Positions 6,319 through 19,557 of a stretch of DNA of 22,098 nucleotides are shown here, in pieces. The position numbers and the translations under genes were made by a program. The notes under the pieces were generated by a model. That model ran no database searches. It had not been told where the DNA came from and saw nothing but the letters and a program-made list of their open reading frames with translations. The DNA is taken from the IMG/VR virus record IMGVR_UViG_2713896791_000015; one strand, given 5' to 3'. The first letter of the stretch is position 1; each line of letters begins with the position of its first letter. The stretch comes from a virus (Duplodnaviria > Heunggongvirae > Uroviricota > Caudoviricetes).

Positions 6319-8016
6319 GTGAATAAAAACATTCAGCCAGCTCGTGATCGCGAGCGCGAGATTATGAATCGGGCGGCAAGCGTCATGGCTATGACCGTCG
6401 ATCCGACCACCGATGCAGCAGGCAACATGATTGCTGACCAGGCAGTAATGATGGAAAACCTGGATAAAGCAATCCAGAAAGTGCCTATGTTTGAAGGCGT
6501 AAATCCAGAGGTCGCTCGTCAGATCACTGGTGGGTGGGCTATGTCTCTGCATGAGTATAAACGTCAACATGGTCATTACCCGGCAAGTGACATCCTGGCG
6601 AACGCACACATGGCTCTTGAACGCCTGATGACTGAATGTGCCAGTGATACCCATGAAGGCACGGGTAAGGCAATGTTTGAGTCTGTCGCGCAATCAATGC
6701 GTAGCTCTGACGGCGTAATGAAAGTTGCTCAATATGCTGCTCTAATTCTGCCTGCCTCTCTGGGCGCTGCTACCAGTGATGCCTGTACTTTTGTTCCTTG
6801 TGATCGTGACGAGTCAAATATTTATGAACTGGTCAACGTAGCAGGCACAAAATTCGGCACCTTCAAACAAGGTGACGAACTGAATATGCAGTCAGCTGGT
6901 GTTTATTCTCAAATGAAGCGCCTGTATACCCTTTCCACTAAAGGGGATGGCAGCACCAAAACCTTCCAGTTCGACATCCAAAATTTTGAGGGACAATCCT
7001 GCCCGCTTCGCGCTGGTTATAACAAACTGCTGATCAACCGCAAACCGTCCAAAGTTGACGACGGCGATGGCAACCTTTATTTCAATGCTAAAGACAGCAA
7101 AGGTAATGCTTTCTCAGCGACTGCCAAAGTTGCCTATGACACTGGTGTCATTGACATTACATTTACCCAGGCTCCGCCAGAAGGTACTGAAATTGCTGTT
7201 CAGGTCGAAATTAACATCGAGCGCAATCCAAGCCTGATTCCTGTGATCAACCAGGCTATGCGTAAGTACGAAGTTCGTCCGTCCCAGTACGTAATTGCTT
7301 CCGAACACACGGTAATGTCCGCATCCGATTTAAGCCGTGAGCACGGCCTTGAATTAGCGGCACTTCAGTTCTCCGCGATGCGTAACTGGATCTCCCATGA
7401 AACCGACATCATGCGTCTGCGCACCCTGGTATTCCATACCGTTTATGGTCGTGAATTTGATGTGGCTCTGCCGGAAGCTCAAAACTATGAGTCCTGGGTC
7501 GGCCTCCTGCGTCACGTAGTAAACGCTCTGTCTCAAGAAATGGCAAATCGTACCCTGACAACGGGTATTCGTGGCGGCTTTGCTGGTGGTGACGCCGCGA
7601 ACTTCCTGCGCTCTCTGCCTCCACAGCACTTCCAGATCGCACCAGGTTACGTTCAGTCGCCGTATGTACAGTACATCGGCACCCTGTTTGGCACGATTCG
7701 TATTTACGAAGTGCCGCAACCTGTCTGTGAGCAATTCCAGGCACAGGGATATGACTTCGGGCTGGATGACATCTTCTTCTATGGGCGTGGCGAAGGCATC
7801 GGTAAAGCCGGTCTGATTGCTGGTGATGCAGTCCCAGCAATCCCTTACGTGCACGAAACCAATCCGTCTCTCGTTAACCGTACCACTCTCTGGGGCAGTG
7901 CCATCAACGAAGTACATCCTCGCAACGGTGAAAACTACTTCACCCGCCTGCGTCTGACTCGTGCCAAAGAAGGTGCTATCGACATGCTGACAGGCAAGGT
8001 TAACGAAAAAAAGTGA
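6319..8016 (+). CDS. Large virion structural protein, candidate major capsid protein (first gene of the rightward structural operon)
   Basis: 565-aa ORF (GTG start) at the head of a long co-directional structural gene block, directly upstream of an Ig-like protein and the tail sheath; ends in the slippery heptamer A_AAA_AAG before its stop. Assignment is by position and size only. Confidence 0.4.
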   Translation: MNKNIQPARDREREIMNRAASVMAMTVDPTTDAAGNMIADQAVMMENLDKAIQKVPMFEGVNPEVARQITGGWAMSLHEYKRQHGHYPASDILANAHMALERLMTECASDTHEGTGKAMFESVAQSMRSSDGVMKVAQYAALILPASLGAATSDACTFVPCDRDESNIYELVNVAGTKFGTFKQGDELNMQSAGVYSQMKRLYTLSTKGDGSTKTFQFDIQNFEGQSCPLRAGYNKLLINRKPSKVDDGDGNLYFNAKDSKGNAFSATAKVAYDTGVIDITFTQAPPEGTEIAVQVEINIERNPSLIPVINQAMRKYEVRPSQYVIASEHTVMSASDLSREHGLELAALQFSAMRNWISHETDIMRLRTLVFHTVYGREFDVALPEAQNYESWVGLLRHVVNALSQEMANRTLTTGIRGGFAGGDAANFLRSLPPQHFQIAPGYVQSPYVQYIGTLFGTIRIYEVPQPVCEQFQAQGYDFGLDDIFFYGRGEGIGKAGLIAGDAVPAIPYVHETNPSLVNRTTLWGSAINEVHPRNGENYFTRLRLTRAKEGAIDMLTGKVNEKK

Positions 8017-8163
8017 TGGTGGCGAACGTGTCGGTATCACCAACGTCACTTGACGTAGATGAAGGTGAAACTATCGCCGCGAACACTTCAAAGGCACAGA
8101 AAAAAACAAAGCAGAAGTAAGGCAAAAACACGCCCCTGAATAAGGGGCGTTCAGGAGAAAAGA

Positions 8164-8442
8164 ATGGCAAACATTCAAGTAACTATCACGCCATCTGACG
8201 CAACAGACAAATCTTTCACTGTTGAGTCAGATCACCCTGAAATTGTCCAGGTTGATGGCACTACATGTACCGCTCTTAAGGCCGGGCAGGCAGTGCTGAC
8301 AATCAAAACAAATGACGGCAATAAAACCGCACAGTGCACAGTCACTGTTAGGGAGGCACCTAAAAGCGTAAGCGCCGTCAGTGTTGAACCAACTACGAAA
8401 GAAGTAACCGTAGGCGACAACTTCACGGTAAGCGAATCCTGA
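8164..8442 (+). CDS. Small bacterial Ig-like (Big_2-type) domain protein, probable virion decoration or accessory protein
   Basis: 92 aa; AGGAG SD; sequence TITPSDATDKSFTVESDHPEIVQVDGTTCTALKAGQAVLTIKTNDGNKTAQCTVTV follows the Big_2 pattern (ATVxxxGxVTAxxAGxAxIT...TVTV); begins a second Ig-like strand SAVSVEPTTKEVTVGD before the stop. Confidence 0.55.
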   Translation: MANIQVTITPSDATDKSFTVESDHPEIVQVDGTTCTALKAGQAVLTIKTNDGNKTAQCTVTVREAPKSVSAVSVEPTTKEVTVGDNFTVSES

Positions 8443-8509
8443 TCAGAGGCTGCCCATTAACCGTGGGTAGCCTTGCCTCGTTCTCTCGCTTTAGAGGATA
8501 AGAACCAGC

Positions 8510-10168
8510 ATGAATAAGATTAGTTTTTCGGTAGGGCAGGCAGCTGGCGTTGCTGTAATGTCAGTAAATGCTGACGCTACCCTCACCAATACCAGCGGTG
8601 GCGCATCCGTCTTTGCTGGGCTTGTAATATCGCGTCGTGGCGCACCGGGTAAGGTACTGAAAGTTGACGATACGACTTATCAAAGCGTATTAGGTTCACC
8701 GATTCACCCTCGCCAGGGCGCGGCATTTGAACCATATCGCCACGTGGAGCGTGCAGTAAAAGGCGGCTCTGGATATGTCGTTCGAGTTTGCGCTAAAGAC
8801 ATGAAGGTGCCTGGTATTTCTGTTTCCGTTGTGGGCAAAGCAAAAGCGGCAAAGGCGAGCAAAGAACTTTCCGTTGAACCTACTGAAACCACAGTAAATC
8901 CAGGTGACACATTAAGCGTTGGTGTTGCTTCAACTGCAACGACTCAATCAGTGTCCTTCACACCCAAAGAGACGCCCCAGATTAAAGGTGAAGAGAAGGC
9001 ATTATTCTTCATCAAAGATGGTGATGCATCTCAAAATCGCACGTTATCACTAACTCGCGATGATGAAGAAAGCGAACTCTTTACGCTGACGCTGAAAGAA
9101 AAACAAACCGATGGGTCCATTGAGGTGCTGGAAAGCCACCAAGTGTCTTTCAATCCAGAAGGCACTAACGACATGGGCCAACCAGCATGGATTCCGACAC
9201 TGCTTGAAAGCCAGTCCACTCGCATTGGTGCCGTACTGGCAGATAATGCAGAAGCATCCGCTGCTCAACTCATTTTTGAGGATGTAGCTTTTGAAGGTGG
9301 TACTGATGGAGATCTGTCCGAAATTGACACTGAAGACTATCTGGAAGCATTAAAGGTTCTCGAAGCTTCAGAGGTTAATTACACCGCATTGCTGTCACTG
9401 GGTTGTTATGACGCATCCGCCTTAGCCGCAATCAAAAAGCTGGCTGAAGATGTTCGCGTAGACATGTTCTATGACCTGAAGGGCAACCAGACACCTGAAA
9501 ACGCTATTTCAGAAGCGAAAAGCCATAGTTTTGGCGGCTCACATCAACCAAGCCGTTACTACTTCCCGCTCTCCTGCCGAGATACCTTCACTGGGATGAA
9601 TGTCGTCTATGGCATTAGTTGCGACGCATTCGTAGCAAAAGCAAAAGGGGTAGCGCTGGTACCGGATGTTGGTGGTTGGCATTACGCACCGGCAGGTATA
9701 TCACGCGCGATTATTGATCGACAGAACATTGCCCGAATTCCAAATATCGGTGCAGTTGATCGTGAAGCGTTCGTTCTTGCGCGCATTAATCCGGTTTCAG
9801 TTGCTGCTGATGGGTCCGTTTACATTGACGACTCTTTAACAACTTACAGCAAAAACAACTATCTGCGATTCCAGCATGTGTCTTCCTTGATGAACGCCAT
9901 CGCCAGAGATTTCTATGAAGTAGCTCAGGCGATTAAGCACGAACCGGATGGCATTACCAAAGAAACGCTAATGAAAGCAATGACTGAATTGCTTGACCGT
10001 TACGTTGCAGCCGGTGCGCTGGTTACTCCACGTGACAAGTCCCAGGGTGAAGATCCATATGTTGTTCAGGTTGTCCAAAAGGACATCGATCTGTGGGAAG
10101 TGTCCTGGTCTGTTTGTCCGACCGGTACAGCTCGCCGAATCGTCGGTAAGCCAATTCTGATGCGCTGA
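8510..10168 (+). CDS. Tail sheath protein (contractile tail), with an Ig-like insertion
   Basis: 552 aa; N-proximal APGKVLKVDDTT and C-terminal AGALVTP...YVVQVVQKDIDLWEVSWSVCPTGTARRIVGKP resemble, from memory, the conserved N- and C-terminal regions of P2 FI / T4 gp18 sheath proteins; internal GWHYAPAGISRAII resembles a sheath GWH motif; located upstream of tube-like genes. Confidence 0.6.
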   Translation: MNKISFSVGQAAGVAVMSVNADATLTNTSGGASVFAGLVISRRGAPGKVLKVDDTTYQSVLGSPIHPRQGAAFEPYRHVERAVKGGSGYVVRVCAKDMKVPGISVSVVGKAKAAKASKELSVEPTETTVNPGDTLSVGVASTATTQSVSFTPKETPQIKGEEKALFFIKDGDASQNRTLSLTRDDEESELFTLTLKEKQTDGSIEVLESHQVSFNPEGTNDMGQPAWIPTLLESQSTRIGAVLADNAEASAAQLIFEDVAFEGGTDGDLSEIDTEDYLEALKVLEASEVNYTALLSLGCYDASALAAIKKLAEDVRVDMFYDLKGNQTPENAISEAKSHSFGGSHQPSRYYFPLSCRDTFTGMNVVYGISCDAFVAKAKGVALVPDVGGWHYAPAGISRAIIDRQNIARIPNIGAVDREAFVLARINPVSVAADGSVYIDDSLTTYSKNNYLRFQHVSSLMNAIARDFYEVAQAIKHEPDGITKETLMKAMTELLDRYVAAGALVTPRDKSQGEDPYVVQVVQKDIDLWEVSWSVCPTGTARRIVGKPILMR

Positions 10169-15774: not shown

Positions 15775-18700
15775 ATGGATATCAGCCCGTTAGCGACGTT
15801 GAACAATTACCGCAATGGCGAGCACTCCATATGTCAAAAGCCCTGGAAGAAAAATACAAAGCTCAAGCTGGGAAACGTTGATCGCGCTGGTAAAAGAGAG
15901 GTTATTTTGAAAGAGAATAAAGACCGTATCGCAATAATTGACGCTATTCAGGAGGCGAGCACAAACGAACTTAAAGCTCTTGCTGAGGTAAAAGACGCCA
16001 TTCTTTCTGGGGCAAGCACCATAACTCAACAGGACGAAAGGCAAGGCAGAGTTAGCAACAGACTATCACGCAGGCGTAAAGACTACGAGCAAAGTACATC
16101 TGATAGCGTTAGAGATGTCCAAACTAACCCATATAAAAAACGTCTCCCTGCTAAAAAGGAAAGGGCACCGATAAACCAAACCGTGGACCGCTCTATCGTT
16201 GCAACGAACACACCAGAAAGTGTTCGCTCCGTGCAATCACGTCAGACCATCCGAAAACCGGACGGTTTTATACCGGTAGCTGCTAATTCAGCCCCTCTTG
16301 AACCACAATCTCCCCAAAGTCTAAAAGGCCCGCTGCGGGATAGTAGTGGACGTTTTGTATCCCAAAAAAGCAATGAGGATGTAGCCAGAAAAAAAGAATT
16401 GCAGAACGCACGTAAAGCCGACGCAAAATTACAAGCTGGCTTTCTCAGAAAGCTAGGTTCCATTATGGGGGTAGATGGCAATCAGTCTTCCAGTGAAGAG
16501 TCTTTAACAAATGCAGCTGGTGTCGGTGCTGGTGGGCCGTTATGGATGGCGGCTCGTGGCATGTACGACATAACTAAAGAGATCACAGGTAAAGCAGAAT
16601 CTCTTAAAGAATGGGTAGAAAAGGGGAAAAAAGAAACATCAACCTCGAAAGCGATATCACCAGTAATTACTTATCCGGCGGCGGTGAATTCTCAAAAAGC
16701 AACATCTGCAAAAGCGTTCAATAACGCTGTTGAGACAAAATCCGCACAAGCAGTAGAAGAGCAAACCAAAATCCTTCAGACCAATGACAACAAAATAATT
16801 GATGGTCTGGAAAATGTTTCTGACGAGATACTTAAGCTTCGGAAATCAGTGTATTCTGGAAATAAGTTCGGCTTAAGTGATCTCTGGAAAAATCGAGCAA
16901 GCAGAAGAAATAAAATCAATATTGGTGATCAGACGGGAAAAAATAAACGGAACAAATCGAAAAGGAAAGGCCGCAATCTTGGAAAAAAAGCACTCTCCGC
17001 TGGCGAAAAAGTTGCTGCCGGTAGCGCTGCGGCTGGCACTGGTGTCGGAGCAGCAAAAGTAGTTAAAAATAAGATCAGCAAACCCAAAGATGTAAGCACT
17101 ATCAGCGATACATCAAAGGGGATTGCAAAGGAAACAAAAAATACTGCTAAGGCCGTGAAGTCAGCTGGTGTTGTGGCTGAAGATGCCACCATTAAAACCG
17201 GCGAAGCCATTGCAAAGAAAAAAACTGAATCTGTAGCCCTCAAAAGTGCTGCAAAAATAGGTGTTAAATCAGCAGCATCCACAGCGGCAAGAGCGGTCCC
17301 TATCATCGGTTCGCTGGCAATGGCTGGATATGACGCCATAGATGGTTACACAGATACAGAGGCGCAAAAGGCAGCCTTTGGTTTAAGTGACGATAATGCT
17401 GTATCCGAACAGCAAAAAACGGCTTACGCAACAGCTAATGTGCTCGATATGGGGGGCTTGGTGTCGGGCGCAACGAACTTGATAGGGAAAGGAATTTCTG
17501 CGCTAGGATTTGAAAGAGCAGGTGAAAAACTTCAGAATTTTGATACCGGAGATATTGCTCGTGGTGTTAACGGCGCGGTAGATATCACCAAATCTGTTTT
17601 TGGTAGCCTTAAGGATACATTTTTATCCACTGACGAAAACACGAAACAAGTAAAAAAAGCTGTTGAAGACGGCACCAAAAAAACTGTCGATGCGATTCAT
17701 TCTCTAGGTGAACAATTACAAGGTGGGCGTAATGGCGAGGATGGAGTTGGTGAGCACGGGTATACTTCTCCAACTGAATTTAGTGCACCTGCCAACAACA
17801 CCATTGCAGCGGATCTGAATATTGGCGGCAGCAACGCTAAAAACCGCAATTACCGAAATAATAATCTCGGCAATCTTGTTTTTGCCAACCAGGAAGGGGC
17901 GACGCTGGAATCGCCAAATGCAAAAGGTGAACAACGTTTTGCTCGATTTAACACGCCTGAAGAAGGGATCAGGGCACTGGCAAACCAGGTTTCCAGCTAT
18001 TACAACGGCACCAGTGCCGCAGCGGGATATCAGAAGTTACAGACGGTATCCAGCATCATTTCAAAATGGGCACCGCCAAATGAGAACAATACTAACCAAT
18101 ATATTGATAACGTCAGTAAATATCTTGGTGTATCGCCTAATGAAAAAATAGATGTCAGCAACCCAGAGGTTATGACGCAATTAGTTCGTGCAATTGCGAC
18201 GAAAGAAGGCGGAAATCCGGCAGTTAATAATGAGTTCATTAAGAATGCACTTGGAGCATTTAACACAAACACTGGTCGATGGGAGGGACAATTCTCTGAC
18301 GAAACATTGGCGCGGATTAATAAAATTCAGAAAGAAAATGGTGGTCAGCTAATTGCCCGCGATTCGCAATATAGTGTTGGTCGCAAGGTAAAATATGCTA
18401 ATGGAAAATCTCCAGCTCATCCAGTTTTGAATGCCGTTCCGACAGCAACACAACAGCCAATTGAGGTTGCACAACATGCCCAGGCAGTCAAAAAGCCACA
18501 AAAAACAGGCAATCAATCGCAACCGATTAATCCAGAGAATGTTGATGTTAATACTGGCTCGCCATCAAGTCTGCTTGAGAGATTAATCGCTATAAATGAA
18601 AGCGGGGTAGGTAATTTATTTGGAGGTGCGGCTACCAGCCTTGCTGGTACAAGCCTTGGCCTGATTAAGGATTTTGCGTCGGCGACTTCGTTTGGTTCTA

Positions 18701-19557
18701 TATCTTCGCTTTCCGAAAAAGCGAAAGGAATGGATCAGGCTCTTACTGAAAAGATATCCAGCTTAACCGGTAAATCTTTTGGATTTCAAAAAGCAAGCCA
18801 GGTAACTGATATAAGAGACGCTTTACAAAAAAGACCAAAAGCTGAACTCGATATGCCTTCAGTGGATCTTCTCTCCGGTGTTTCTTCGGCAAGTGAGAGT
18901 GAAAAAATCTCTGTAAACTCAAGGGGGATTCCAGTTTATGACAATGGATACAAGGTAATTGATGGTGAAGATAAGGGGGTGCTTGGCTCTTTGTTTGACT
19001 CGTCATTAACAGGTCTGAAACGTATTAGCTCTGCTGTGTTACCTGCAATTGGCGATAACGTTTCACAACTTATTGGTGGGGTAGATGGCACAGGCATTGT
19101 TAATGATTTGATTTATCAGGCTACTGGGCAGAATTCAACAATTGCCAGGGCTATTAGCCCGCTTACCAGGAGCGCCGGTAGTTGGCTGAATAATGGTATT
19201 CAACAAACCGCAGATAGCATTAGAGGTATATCAAACGAAGCCAATAATGCCATATTTGGCTCTGCGTCAGCCGTGCAAGAACCTTTTCTTGCTTTGCCAC
19301 CACAGCTTCCTACTGTAACAGATCTCGCACGAAGCGGAATAAGACAACCATTAACTACTGACACTATAAATAACGATCCTGCTATGTTGAAGGCGCTGGA
19401 TAACATCTGCTCTATCCTGAACGATCTTCTGAATGTGAACAAGAACAATACAAAAGGCGATCCGGATAAGGTTGTCAAAACATCGCAGCCGCAACCGCGA
19501 CCACGTGCTAGCACAACTATTAATGACCCGTCGCTGGATGCTCTGCTTGAGGATTAA
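15775..19557 (+). CDS. Tail tape-measure / injection protein (Sit-like), 1260 aa, with Lys/Ala-rich N-terminal third and a central globular domain
   Basis: Very long ORF immediately upstream of baseplate W/J/I genes; N-terminal low-complexity K/A/S-rich helical region; central block NLGNLVFANQEGATLESPNAKGEQRFARFNTPEEGIRALANQVSSYYNG...; Ser/Gly-rich C-terminal half. Start uncertain (ATG 15775 lacks SD; TTG near 15904 has AGAGAGG SD). Confidence 0.65.
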   Translation: MDISPLATLNNYRNGEHSICQKPWKKNTKLKLGNVDRAGKREVILKENKDRIAIIDAIQEASTNELKALAEVKDAILSGASTITQQDERQGRVSNRLSRRRKDYEQSTSDSVRDVQTNPYKKRLPAKKERAPINQTVDRSIVATNTPESVRSVQSRQTIRKPDGFIPVAANSAPLEPQSPQSLKGPLRDSSGRFVSQKSNEDVARKKELQNARKADAKLQAGFLRKLGSIMGVDGNQSSSEESLTNAAGVGAGGPLWMAARGMYDITKEITGKAESLKEWVEKGKKETSTSKAISPVITYPAAVNSQKATSAKAFNNAVETKSAQAVEEQTKILQTNDNKIIDGLENVSDEILKLRKSVYSGNKFGLSDLWKNRASRRNKINIGDQTGKNKRNKSKRKGRNLGKKALSAGEKVAAGSAAAGTGVGAAKVVKNKISKPKDVSTISDTSKGIAKETKNTAKAVKSAGVVAEDATIKTGEAIAKKKTESVALKSAAKIGVKSAASTAARAVPIIGSLAMAGYDAIDGYTDTEAQKAAFGLSDDNAVSEQQKTAYATANVLDMGGLVSGATNLIGKGISALGFERAGEKLQNFDTGDIARGVNGAVDITKSVFGSLKDTFLSTDENTKQVKKAVEDGTKKTVDAIHSLGEQLQGGRNGEDGVGEHGYTSPTEFSAPANNTIAADLNIGGSNAKNRNYRNNNLGNLVFANQEGATLESPNAKGEQRFARFNTPEEGIRALANQVSSYYNGTSAAAGYQKLQTVSSIISKWAPPNENNTNQYIDNVSKYLGVSPNEKIDVSNPEVMTQLVRAIATKEGGNPAVNNEFIKNALGAFNTNTGRWEGQFSDETLARINKIQKENGGQLIARDSQYSVGRKVKYANGKSPAHPVLNAVPTATQQPIEVAQHAQAVKKPQKTGNQSQPINPENVDVNTGSPSSLLERLIAINESGVGNLFGGAATSLAGTSLGLIKDFASATSFGSISSLSEKAKGMDQALTEKISSLTGKSFGFQKASQVTDIRDALQKRPKAELDMPSVDLLSGVSSASESEKISVNSRGIPVYDNGYKVIDGEDKGVLGSLFDSSLTGLKRISSAVLPAIGDNVSQLIGGVDGTGIVNDLIYQATGQNSTIARAISPLTRSAGSWLNNGIQQTADSIRGISNEANNAIFGSASAVQEPFLALPPQLPTVTDLARSGIRQPLTTDTINNDPAMLKALDNICSILNDLLNVNKNNTKGDPDKVVKTSQPQPRPRASTTINDPSLDALLED

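What the first reader, a model, noticed from the sequence alone, without database searches (positions are those of the whole stretch)
7990..8150. dnaX-type slippery heptamer A_AAA_AAG immediately before the stop of the 565-aa structural gene, with a -1 frame Ig-like extension
The last two codons of the 565-aa gene are AAA AAG preceded by A (8007..8013), the classical -1 programmed-frameshift heptamer, directly followed by TGA. A -1 shift would append 35 residues (VMVANVSVSPTSLDVDEGETIAANTSKAQKKTKQK) ending at TAA 8118..8120. The extension starts like the first strand of a Big_2 Ig-like domain, and the next gene (8164..8442) encodes the rest of a Big_2 domain. Ig-like domains are often added to phage structural proteins by programmed frameshifting. 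A GC hairpin (8130..8150) follows. The alternative is a homopolymer sequencing error in one of the two A7 runs (8006..8012, 8100..8106).
Basis: seen in the sequence. Interest (0 to 1): 0.5.

Follow-up and report, generated by a model that had tools for sequence, protein, structure and literature searches.

The report
Capsid-gene frameshift feeding a split Ig domain
In phage D6 and its plasmid-prophage relatives, a slippery A_AAA_AAG at the end of the major capsid gene very probably makes some ribosomes slip back one base and add a 35-residue tail, which carries only the first strands of an Ig-like domain while the next gene encodes the rest.

Summary
No product was measured.

The window is an Escherichia phage D6-type plasmid prophage. 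The 565-aa gene is the major capsid protein (P1 gene 23 homologue).

- **Site:** A_AAA_AAG (8007-8013) lies in phase and is followed by TGA. The -1 frame stays open for 35 codons.
- **Conservation:** the heptamer and -1 ORF are present in every D6-clade sequence examined and in five deeper lineages with unrelated upstream linkers. Synonymous sites elsewhere in the gene are nearly saturated.
- **Selection:** the -1 frame shows purifying selection.
- **In-frame relatives:** some relatives encode the same peptide in frame with the capsid protein. Others carry a complete in-frame Big_2 domain.
- **Rivals:** sequencing error is excluded, and independent initiation is unlikely.

The tail is not an Ig domain. 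It is only strands A/A' of Big_2. The next gene (8164-8442) encodes strands B-G plus a second A/A'-like peptide.

This split is conserved across lineages. I infer, without a test, that the frameshifted tail anchors the small protein by beta-strand complementation.

The frameshift is a new member of a known kind. The split domain is a new variant.

The parts
6319..8016 (+). Major capsid protein gene, 565 aa in the 0 frame (P1 gene 23 homologue; D6 orf51)
   Evidence: 99.9% identical to phage D6, where it is annotated as major capsid protein. It matches solved P1 Gp23 (9ukm) at E 2.7e-164.
8007..8013 (+). Slippery heptamer A_AAA_AAG in X_XXY_YYZ phase, covering the last two sense codons
   Evidence: It is invariant in all D6-clade sequences and in lineages L012-L015, L042 and L043.
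8014..8016 (+). 0-frame stop codon directly 3' of the heptamer
   Evidence: Within the clade it is TGA, TAA or TAG, so the position is conserved but the codon is not.
8013..8120 (+). -1 frame extension ORF: 35 codons plus TAA. It encodes the Big_2 strand A/A' peptide and a Lys-rich tail. D6 annotates it as orf50 starting at ATG 8016.
   Evidence: Searches give the sequence and annotation. pN/pS is 0.41. Grafting it onto the orf49 core restores a full Big_2 match, 2-79/79, at 43.7 bits against 34.7. It aligns with the in-frame tails of P0012 and P0013.
8019..8080 (+). Predicted stem-loop 5 nt downstream of the heptamer. The outer stem pairs GUGGCGA with UCGCCGC.
   Evidence: MFE is -31.1 kcal/mol with z -3.9. 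Similar folds occur in 3 of the 4 clade relatives folded. No covariation test was possible because the stems are invariant.
8130..8150 (+). GC-rich hairpin between the extension ORF and the next gene
   Evidence: A hairpin sits at the same place, with different stem sequences, in all lineages that have this split arrangement except L043.
8153..8157 (+). AGGAG ribosome-binding site of the downstream gene
   Evidence: Read from the sequence. Every homologue aligned has its own start codon.
8164..8358 (+). orf49 residues 1-65: Big_2 core, strands B to G, lacking strands A/A'
   Evidence: Pfam Big_2 positions 22-79 of 79. The AF2 model has strands at 4-6, 18-22, 28-31, 34-37, 41-49 and 55-63. The best structural matches are Big_2 domains, including the lambda gpV C-terminal domain.
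8359..8442 (+). orf49 residues 66-92 plus stop: a second strand A/A'-like peptide (APKSVSAVSVEPTTKEVTVGDNFTVSES)
   Evidence: It aligns with the capsid extension peptides and with the first 25 residues of complete Big_2 domains. It is conserved in all full-length orf49 homologues.

Best explanation
A programmed -1 ribosomal frameshift at A_AAA_AAG (8007-8013) operates at the end of the D6-type major capsid protein gene.

Most ribosomes terminate at TGA 8014 and make the 565-aa capsid protein. A minority slip back one base with tRNA-Lys in the P and A sites. They then read GTG ATG GTG ... and add 35 residues before TAA 8118. The likely aids are the adjacent stop codon and a stem-loop starting 5 nt downstream.

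The added tail is the A/A' strand segment of a Big_2 Ig-like domain, followed by a basic tail.

Inferred step: this peptide is displayed at the capsid protein C-terminus. It inserts in trans into the strand-deficient Big_2 core of the next gene's 92-aa product, anchoring that protein to the capsid. The small protein's own C-terminal A/A' peptide could then recruit a further copy. The result would be a non-covalent equivalent of a tandem Big_2 rod that is nicked in each A'-B loop.

What is shown by sequence comparison:
- the heptamer and its phase;
- the conserved -1 ORF under selection;
- homology of the tail to in-frame tails in relatives;
- the split-domain architecture.

What is inferred:
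- that slippage actually occurs, and its efficiency;
- the role of the hairpin;
- the strand complementation.

My probabilities are about 0.85 for the frameshift and about 0.45 for trans complementation.
For: **Site and conservation**
- The heptamer, its phase, the stop and the -1 ORF are as described.
- They are conserved in six divergent D6-like plasmids, although the ATG that D6 uses to annotate orf50 is lost there.
- 23 of 23 D6-clade viral contigs carry them.

**Deeper lineages**
- Raoultella, Enterobacter and metagenomic relatives (L012-L015, L042, L043) keep A_AAA_AAG in phase.
- Their upstream linkers are unrelated, and the preceding codon is GAA, GGA or GCA.
- In each the -1 frame encodes V-x-V-(T/A)-G-V-S-V...G-(D/E)-x-I.

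**Synonymous sites and selection**
- Only 7.3% of invariant-residue codons are identical across these lineages.
- pN/pS is 0.41 in the -1 frame against 0.90 and 1.97 in the other frames.

**In-frame relatives**
- P0012 and P0013 carry the homologous peptide in frame.
- P0046, P0047, P0059, P0061 and P0063 carry a whole Big_2 domain in frame.

**RNA structure**
- Stable hairpins are predicted 4-7 nt after the site in most lineages: z -3.2 to -4.0 in four of the five D6-clade sequences folded, -2.6 in L042 and -3.9 in L043.

**Ribosomal rather than transcriptional slippage**
- Three lineages have only an A6 run but keep the phase.
- Rosenbergiella-type relatives use G_GGA_AAG plus a stop instead.

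**Split domain**
- Pfam matches the orf49 core over positions 22-79 only. Extension plus core gives 2-79 and gains 9 bits.
- Alignment places the extension peptides and the orf49 C-terminal peptides on the first 25 residues of complete domains.
- The orf49 profile matches tandem Big_2 arrays in a shifted register.
- L043 has one acceptor-only paralogue of 68 aa and one acceptor-plus-donor paralogue of 91 aa.

**Published context**
- A_AAA_AAG is an efficient and under-represented shift motif in E. coli (PMC4066793).
- Ig-like extensions of phage coat proteins are made by frameshifting or in frame, interchangeably (PMC5009743).
Against: - No protein or reporter data exist. The D6 GenBank record treats the ORF as a separate hypothetical gene.
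- AAAAAAG alone is not over-represented in the window.
- No RNA structure is conserved across all lineages, and no compensatory changes were seen. One clade member (L008) folds no better than its shuffles.
- No conserved upstream Shine-Dalgarno-like element was seen. I only inspected this by eye.
- Rfam finds no frameshift element.
- In D6 proper, TGATG overlaps the stop with an ATG, so some reinitiation could make a free 34-aa peptide.
- For the complementation step:
  - the extension alone has no Pfam hit;
  - the AF2 model of orf49 is of modest confidence (pLDDT 66.5) and I could not inspect its coordinates;
  - multimer prediction was not possible;
  - both donor and acceptor contain a strand-B-like stretch, so the exact register is unclear.
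Confidence: 0.8

Rival explanations
1. Homopolymer sequencing or assembly error. In this reading the true sequence has A8, or another run length, and the capsid gene simply continues in frame.
For: Two plasmid assemblies show A6 instead of A7. One viral contig differs at the second A run. One error-ridden assembly has a longer run.
Against: A7 followed by a stop is found in the phage D6 record, in 58 plasmid records at 99% identity or more, and in 23 of 23 viral contigs. Lineages at 75-81% nucleotide identity keep the same arrangement with all three stop codons. A6 would lead into the +1 frame, which has a stop after 14 codons.
Confidence: 0.01
2. The 35-codon ORF (D6 orf50) is an independent small gene. 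It would be translated from ATG 8016 by termination-reinitiation at the overlapping TGATG, giving a free 34-aa peptide and not a capsid fusion.
For: D6 annotates it this way. TGA and ATG overlap in the window and in the D6-proper subclade.
Against: - The ATG is GCA in the other subclades.
- L012, L013 and L014 have no ATG, GTG or TTG near the start of the -1 ORF.
- There is no Shine-Dalgarno sequence upstream.
- The homologous peptide is covalently part of the capsid protein in P0012 and P0013.
- The in-phase heptamer would be left unexplained.
Confidence: 0.07
3. Transcriptional slippage. RNA polymerase would add one A in the A7 run, giving an mRNA in which the extension is in frame. The product would be ...NEKKK-VMVAN, with one extra Lys.
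For: A runs are known slippage sites, and AAAAAAA is avoided in all frames in E. coli for that reason (PMC4066793). The window has A7.
Against: - L012, L015 and L042 have only A6 yet keep the exact X_XXY_YYZ phase.
- Related capsid genes use G_GGA_AAG, which has no homopolymer run.
- From general knowledge, seven A's is short for efficient slippage by E. coli RNA polymerase.
- Hairpins positioned 4-7 nt downstream fit ribosomal shifting.
Confidence: 0.06
4. Evolutionary debris. An ancestral in-frame capsid-Big_2 fusion would have been broken by indels, so the -1 ORF and the truncated downstream gene are decaying remnants without function.
For: Relatives with an intact in-frame Big_2 domain exist. 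P1-type relatives have no such appendage at all.
Against: - The split arrangement persists across lineages that differ by up to 31% in capsid protein sequence.
- ORFs, start codons and the C-terminal donor-like peptide are all intact.
- The -1 frame is under purifying selection.
- The heptamer is invariant at otherwise saturated synonymous sites.
Confidence: 0.05

Closest known systems
E. coli dnaX tau/gamma -1 frameshift
   Same: The heptamer A_AAA_AAG is identical and is decoded by tRNA-Lys. A stem-loop is predicted a few nucleotides downstream.
   Different: - In dnaX the shift leads to an immediate stop and a shorter product. Here it bypasses the stop and lengthens the protein.
- No conserved upstream Shine-Dalgarno-like stimulator was seen.
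- There is no Rfam match to the dnaX element.
Frameshift-derived coat protein extensions in T3/T7 gene 10, Lactobacillus phage A2 and Listeria phages A118/A500/PSA (PMC5009743)
   Same: A minority of major capsid subunits receive a C-terminal extension by recoding at the end of the gene. The extension is related to an Ig-like domain. Relatives encode it in frame or out of frame, interchangeably.
   Different: In those phages the extension described is a complete domain or a long tail. Here it is only the first strand segment of a Big_2 domain, and the rest is encoded by a separate gene.
SPP1 tail tube protein gp17.1* (PMC8718954)
   Same: A frameshift adds an Ig-fold module to a fraction (about 1 in 4) of a major structural protein.
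   Different: It concerns the tail, not the capsid. A whole FN3 domain is added, with no split.
Phage lambda G/GT frameshift at G_GGA_AAG
   Same: The same heptamer, G_GGA_AAG, followed by a stop, ends the homologous capsid gene in Rosenbergiella-type relatives.
   Different: It serves a different gene (tail assembly chaperone) and makes a different product. The window itself uses A_AAA_AAG.
Donor-strand complementation in chaperone-usher pili and strand exchange in type V pili (general knowledge)
   Same: A subunit with an Ig-like fold lacks one edge strand, and a partner carries a terminal peptide that could supply it. As in type V pili, the acceptor lacks an N-terminal strand and carries a C-terminal donor.
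   Different: There is no sequence relationship, no chaperone or usher, and no evidence of proteolytic activation. Complementation here is inferred from sequence only.
Ig-like capsid decoration proteins (T4 Hoc, T5 pb10) and the lambda gpV C-terminal Big_2 domain
   Same: These are small, surface-exposed Ig-like modules on virions. The orf49 model matches the lambda gpV C-terminal domain.
   Different: Those use a dedicated capsid-binding domain or are covalently part of the structural protein. Here the proposed anchor is a shared beta-strand.

Membership tests
Programmed -1 ribosomal frameshift site (X_XXY_YYZ type) | Slippery heptamer in the correct phase of the upstream ORF | tested here: met
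   A_AAA_AAG at 8007-8013, with (position minus ORF start) mod 3 = 2.
Programmed -1 ribosomal frameshift site (X_XXY_YYZ type) | Heptamer conserved in relatives beyond what coding constraints explain | tested here: met
   It is invariant in all lineages that have this arrangement, while only 21 of 286 invariant-residue codons are identical across them.
Programmed -1 ribosomal frameshift site (X_XXY_YYZ type) | -1 ORF open from the site, conserved and under purifying selection | tested here: met
   The extension is 24-45 codons in 12 distinct variants. pN/pS is 0.41 against 0.90 and 1.97 in the other frames. The homologous peptide is in frame in P0012 and P0013.
Programmed -1 ribosomal frameshift site (X_XXY_YYZ type) | Downstream stimulatory RNA structure at 4-9 nt | tested here: inconclusive
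   Stable hairpins are predicted with significant z-scores in most lineages. There is no consensus structure and no covariation, and L008, L012 and L015 are not significant.
Programmed -1 ribosomal frameshift site (X_XXY_YYZ type) | Upstream Shine-Dalgarno-like stimulator (dnaX type) | tested here: inconclusive
   G-rich stretches lie 7-16 nt upstream in several lineages, but they are not conserved in sequence or spacing (inspection output only).
Programmed -1 ribosomal frameshift site (X_XXY_YYZ type) | Trans-frame protein product detected | not testable with these tools
   This needs mass spectrometry, a western blot or a reporter assay.
Pfam Big_2 (PF02368) Ig-like domain | Full-length match to the 79-position profile above the gathering score | tested here: not met
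   - The extension alone gives no hit.
- orf49 alone matches positions 22-79 only, at 32.9 bits.
- Only the artificial join of extension and core gives 2-79/79, at 43.7 bits.
- Each gene product is therefore a partial domain.
Donor-strand complementation / strand-exchange assemblies | Acceptor subunit with an Ig-like fold missing an edge strand | tested here: met
   This is met at sequence level only. All orf49 homologues start at strand B.
Donor-strand complementation / strand-exchange assemblies | Partner carries a terminal peptide homologous to the missing strand | tested here: met
   The capsid -1 extension and the orf49 C-terminus both align with strands A/A' of complete Big_2 domains. 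The join gains 9 bits and 2.8 bits respectively.
Donor-strand complementation / strand-exchange assemblies | Physical insertion of the donor strand into the acceptor in trans | not testable with these tools

The most novel reading that the evidence does not exclude
A phage capsid decoration built by non-covalent beta-strand exchange. The frameshifted capsid subunits would display a lone Big_2 A/A' strand that nucleates head-to-tail chains of a strand-deficient 92-aa Ig protein. This would be the equivalent of a tandem Ig rod nicked in every A'-B loop.

Frameshift efficiency would set the number of fibres per capsid. Donor-less paralogues, such as the 68-aa gene in L043, would act as chain caps.
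Probability: 0.35. Interest if true: 0.8.

Novelty: new variant of a known kind. Interest (0 to 1): 0.6.

Why it matters
- **Annotation.** D6-type phage-plasmids are common in E. coli, Salmonella and Shigella: 121 plasmid records contain this segment. Their capsid gene is annotated without recoding, so a virion protein species is probably missing from every annotation.
- **Evolution of recoding.** One gene family shows five states side by side:
  - no appendage;
  - a low-complexity tail;
  - a complete in-frame Ig domain;
  - an in-frame strand peptide;
  - the same peptide reached by -1 frameshifting at either of two different heptamers.
  This makes it a compact natural series for studying how recoding evolves.
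- **Mechanism and use.** If the split Ig domain is reassembled in trans, it would be a natural strand-complementation tag on a capsid. Copy number would be set by frameshift efficiency. That would bear on decoration-protein biology and on phage display and engineering.

Tried and rejected
- **Model coordinates.** They are not exposed, so cis or trans docking of the orf49 C-terminal strands could not be inspected.
- **Consensus RNA structure across all lineages.** Only 7 weak pairs and no covariation. Structures appear to be lineage-specific.
- **Rfam.** No family matched, and no dnaX element was found.
- **Exhaustive profile search with orf49.** The listed hits are large multi-repeat proteins, each matching the profile in many stretches. 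It could not reveal other small split-domain proteins, but it did show the shifted repeat register.
- **Word-indexed search with orf49.** It found close relatives only.
- **The D6 genome paper (PMC5800970).** It is not held, so I cannot say whether its authors discussed a frameshift. The GenBank record does not annotate one.
- **T4 gene-60-type bypass joining the extension to orf49.** Rejected for three reasons:
  - the candidate landing codon is out of frame with orf49;
  - orf49 has its own conserved ribosome-binding site and start;
  - donor and acceptor overlap in strand B.
- **The second A7 run (8100-8106).** It is not conserved in relatives and has no apparent role.
- **Plasmid pSa1423-90k (L003).** It was discarded as an indel-ridden assembly.
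Full report
**1. What the window is**

Bases 6319-8500 are 99.9% identical to Escherichia phage D6, a P1-like plasmid prophage. Over the wider window the sequence differs from D6 at many positions. It is therefore an independent member of the D6 group.

D6 annotates four genes here:
- 6319..8016: major capsid protein, "similar to P1 gene 23".
- 8016..8120: a separate hypothetical orf50.
- 8164..8442: orf49, "structural protein with Ig domain".
- 8510..10168: the tail sheath.

The capsid protein matches the solved P1 Gp23 chain (9ukm, 9vl4) at E 2.7e-164. The P1 capsid is T=13 with 775 copies of gp23. Its first 124 residues are removed, and no outer decoration protein is among the components identified (PMC12810830).

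**2. The observation**

The sequence reads GTT AAC GAA AAA AAG TGA. A_AAA_AAG lies at 8007-8013 in X_XXY_YYZ phase, and the stop is at 8014-8016.

The -1 frame from 8013 is open for 35 codons and ends at TAA 8118-8120. It encodes VMVANVSVSPTSLDVDEGETIAANTSKAQKKTKQK.

The hairpin at 8130-8150 and both A7 runs are present.

AAAAAAG on its own is not above chance: 12 copies against 8.5 expected. Using the ORF coordinates, the copy at 8007 is the only one in phase within a gene.

**3. Conservation**

The segment occurs in 121 plasmid records from E. coli, Salmonella and Shigella.

Six divergent members (75-81% nucleotide identity) keep GAAAAAAAG exactly. They change the stop to TAG and replace the ATG of "orf50" with GCA. 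The -1 frame stays open to a TAA at the same place.

All 23 D6-clade contigs from IMG/VR have the in-phase heptamer and the extension ORF. Ten distinct 84-nt versions of the site exist, and among them the stop is TGA, TAA or TAG.

Deeper relatives also keep A_AAA_AAG in phase. Their capsid proteins are 69-84% identical to the window's. They come from Raoultella, Enterobacter hormaechei and metagenomes (L012, L013, L014, L015, L042, L043).
- The sequence before the heptamer is an unrelated acidic or Gly-rich linker.
- The preceding codon is GAA, GGA or GCA.
- In four of them the 0 frame runs two more codons.
- In each, the -1 frame encodes V-x-V-(T/A)-G-(V/L/I)-S-V ... G-(D/E)-x-(I/F/V) and then stops.

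Across eight such genes, only 21 of 286 columns with an invariant degenerate residue keep the same codon, and only 1 of 6 Lys columns does. An unchanged XXA AAA AAG is therefore not explained by protein-level constraint.

Within the D6 clade, pN/pS of the extension is 0.41 in the -1 frame. It is 0.90 and 1.97 in the other two frames. The pairs are not phylogenetically independent, so this is supporting evidence and not a formal test.

**4. The extension is a genuine part of the capsid protein in relatives**

Two metagenomic capsid proteins carry the homologous peptide in frame:
- P0012 (74% identity): ...VEGVTLSPASITVSAGDEITAGNTKKDS*
- P0013 (69% identity): ...VEGVSLAPQKISVSVGDEITTSNTKKDS*

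Both are followed by a GC hairpin and an orf49-like gene.

Five more distant capsid proteins (46-53% identity) carry a complete Big_2 domain in frame and have no orf49. These include representatives from Serratia and Erwinia.

This is the pattern reviewed for Ig-like extensions in phages, where in-frame and frameshifted versions replace one another (PMC5009743).

**5. Rivals**

- **Sequencing error.** It is excluded by the number of independent assemblies. A6 occurs in two plasmid assemblies and would lead into a frame that stops after 14 codons.
- **Independent initiation.** It lacks a conserved start codon or Shine-Dalgarno sequence. In D6 proper, TGATG could allow some reinitiation.
- **Transcriptional slippage.** It is unlikely to be the conserved mechanism. 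Three lineages have only A6 but keep the phase. A sister group uses a different heptamer: Rosenbergiella L022, L040 and L090, and metagenome L041. These end the same gene with G_GGA_AAG plus a stop. Their -1 ORFs encode 59-80 residues of Ala/Lys/Asp/Gln-rich tail, resembling the in-frame low-complexity tails of Pantoea and Xenorhabdus relatives.
- **Decay of an ancestral fusion.** It does not fit the selection signal or the intact ORFs.

**6. Stimulators**

The 84 nt starting at the heptamer fold into a long hairpin. Its 7-bp outer stem (GUGGCGA/UCGCCGC) starts 5 nt after the heptamer. MFE is -31.1 kcal/mol and z is -3.9.

Three of the four other clade members folded give z -3.2 to -4.0, and one does not.

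Other lineages have different hairpins starting 4-7 nt downstream:

| Lineage | z-score | Note |
|---|---|---|
| L043 | -3.9 | |
| L042 | -2.6 | |
| L022 | -2.4 | perfect 11-bp stem |
| L040 | -2.7 | |

L013 and L014 have hairpins that start at the last base of the heptamer, with z -2.3 and -3.3.

L012 and L015 are not significant. There is no consensus fold and no covariation.

The hairpin is therefore a plausible but unproven stimulator. The adjacent stop codon may also contribute. That is general knowledge and was not tested.

A_AAA_AAG is among the efficient and under-represented motifs in E. coli (PMC4066793).

**7. What is appended**

The extension alone has no Pfam hit, and orf49 matches Big_2 only over positions 22-79.

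| Construct | Big_2 profile positions | Score (bits) |
|---|---|---|
| orf49 core alone | 22-79 | 34.7 |
| Extension (first 21 residues) + core | 2-79 of 79 | 43.7 |
| orf49's own C-terminal peptide + core | 2-79 | 37.5 |

In an alignment, the extension peptides, the in-frame tails and the C-terminal 27 residues of all orf49 homologues fall on the first 25 residues of complete domains. The orf49 cores fall on the remainder.

Every full-length orf49 homologue, from six lineages, keeps this C-terminal peptide: V-x-G-V-S/T-V ... G-D/E-x-F/I-x-V.

A profile of orf49 matches giant tandem Big_2 proteins over query positions of about 5-89. That corresponds to one repeat length in a shifted register.

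The AF2 model of orf49 has modest confidence (pLDDT 66.5). It shows the core strands, a disordered linker at 65-76 and two C-terminal strands. Its best structural matches are Big_2 domains, including the lambda gpV C-terminal domain.

**8. Proposed mechanism for the split domain (inference)**

In a Big_2/I-set topology, strand G ends at the opposite pole from where strand A begins. The 5-9-residue linker in orf49 therefore seems too short for its own C-terminal peptide to fill its own A/A' position. A tandem array geometry fits better.

I therefore propose three steps:
- The frameshifted capsid tail supplies A/A' to one orf49 molecule.
- The C-terminal A/A' of that orf49 can take a further orf49.
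- The assembly mimics a tandem Ig rod nicked in the A'-B loops.

Locus L043 fits this model. It has the frameshifted donor, a 68-aa acceptor without a donor peptide and a 91-aa acceptor with one. That makes two donors for two acceptors.

This step could not be tested here. Both parts also contain a strand-B-like stretch, which leaves the register uncertain.

**9. Comparison and novelty**

The site works like dnaX (same heptamer) and like the coat-protein frameshifts of T3/T7, A2 and the Listeria phages. By its defining sequence features it belongs to that kind, but the product remains undetected.

I found no paper describing it. Searches found none, and the D6 paper was not readable. The D6 record does not annotate it.

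What departs from the known cases is that only a strand segment is added, while the rest of the domain sits in a separate, conserved gene.

I rate the frameshift itself as a new member of a known kind. I rate the whole arrangement as a new variant.

Noticed in passing
L022:4695-4918, L040:3198-3390, L041:3189-3440, L090 (relatives, not the window): Rosenbergiella-type homologues of the same capsid gene end in G_GGA_AAG (the lambda G/GT heptamer) followed directly by a stop. Their -1 ORFs encode 59-80 residues of Ala/Lys/Asp/Gln-rich sequence. In L022, L040 and L041, the three folded, a hairpin starts 4-7 nt downstream. This looks like a second, independent frameshift solution at the same gene end.
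   Followed up: partly
L043:3330-3868: One relative has two orf49-like genes after the capsid gene. The first is a 68-aa Big_2 core without the C-terminal strand-A-like peptide. The second is a 91-aa version with it. The first could be a chain-capping subunit.
   Followed up: partly
window 8130-8150 and the equivalent position in L004-L015: A GC-rich hairpin between the capsid extension ORF and orf49 is kept in all of these lineages, with different stem sequences such as GCCCC/GGGGC, CCCCCGG/..., and GCGCCC/GGGCGC. On the + strand it has no U-tract. In the window the minus strand looks like an intrinsic terminator, but the A-run responsible is absent in relatives. It may attenuate transcription or stabilise the capsid mRNA.
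   Followed up: partly
window 8100-8106: The second A7 run lies inside the extension ORF. It is not conserved in relatives. One IMG/VR contig (L051) differs here, which changes the tail of the extension. This is probably homopolymer noise.
   Followed up: partly
family-wide (P0001-P0084; L019-L123): The C-terminus of P1/D6-type capsid proteins is a hotspot of variation. The states seen are a short tail (P1 type), acidic or Ala/Thr-rich low-complexity tails of 15-70 residues, a complete Big_2 domain, or the strand peptide. Many tails end in a Lys-rich motif such as KKSE, KKDS, KSTK or SAKK.
   Followed up: partly
window 15775-19557: The 1260-aa ORF contains six AAAAAAG heptamers, all out of the X_XXY_YYZ phase by my arithmetic. 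This fits avoidance of the in-phase motif inside genes.
   Followed up: no
window 8448-8472: An imperfect 9-bp hairpin (GGCTGCCCA ... TGGGTAGCC) follows the orf49 stop and precedes the tail sheath gene. Relatives have a hairpin at the same place with different sequence. The terminator scan did not flag it.
   Followed up: no
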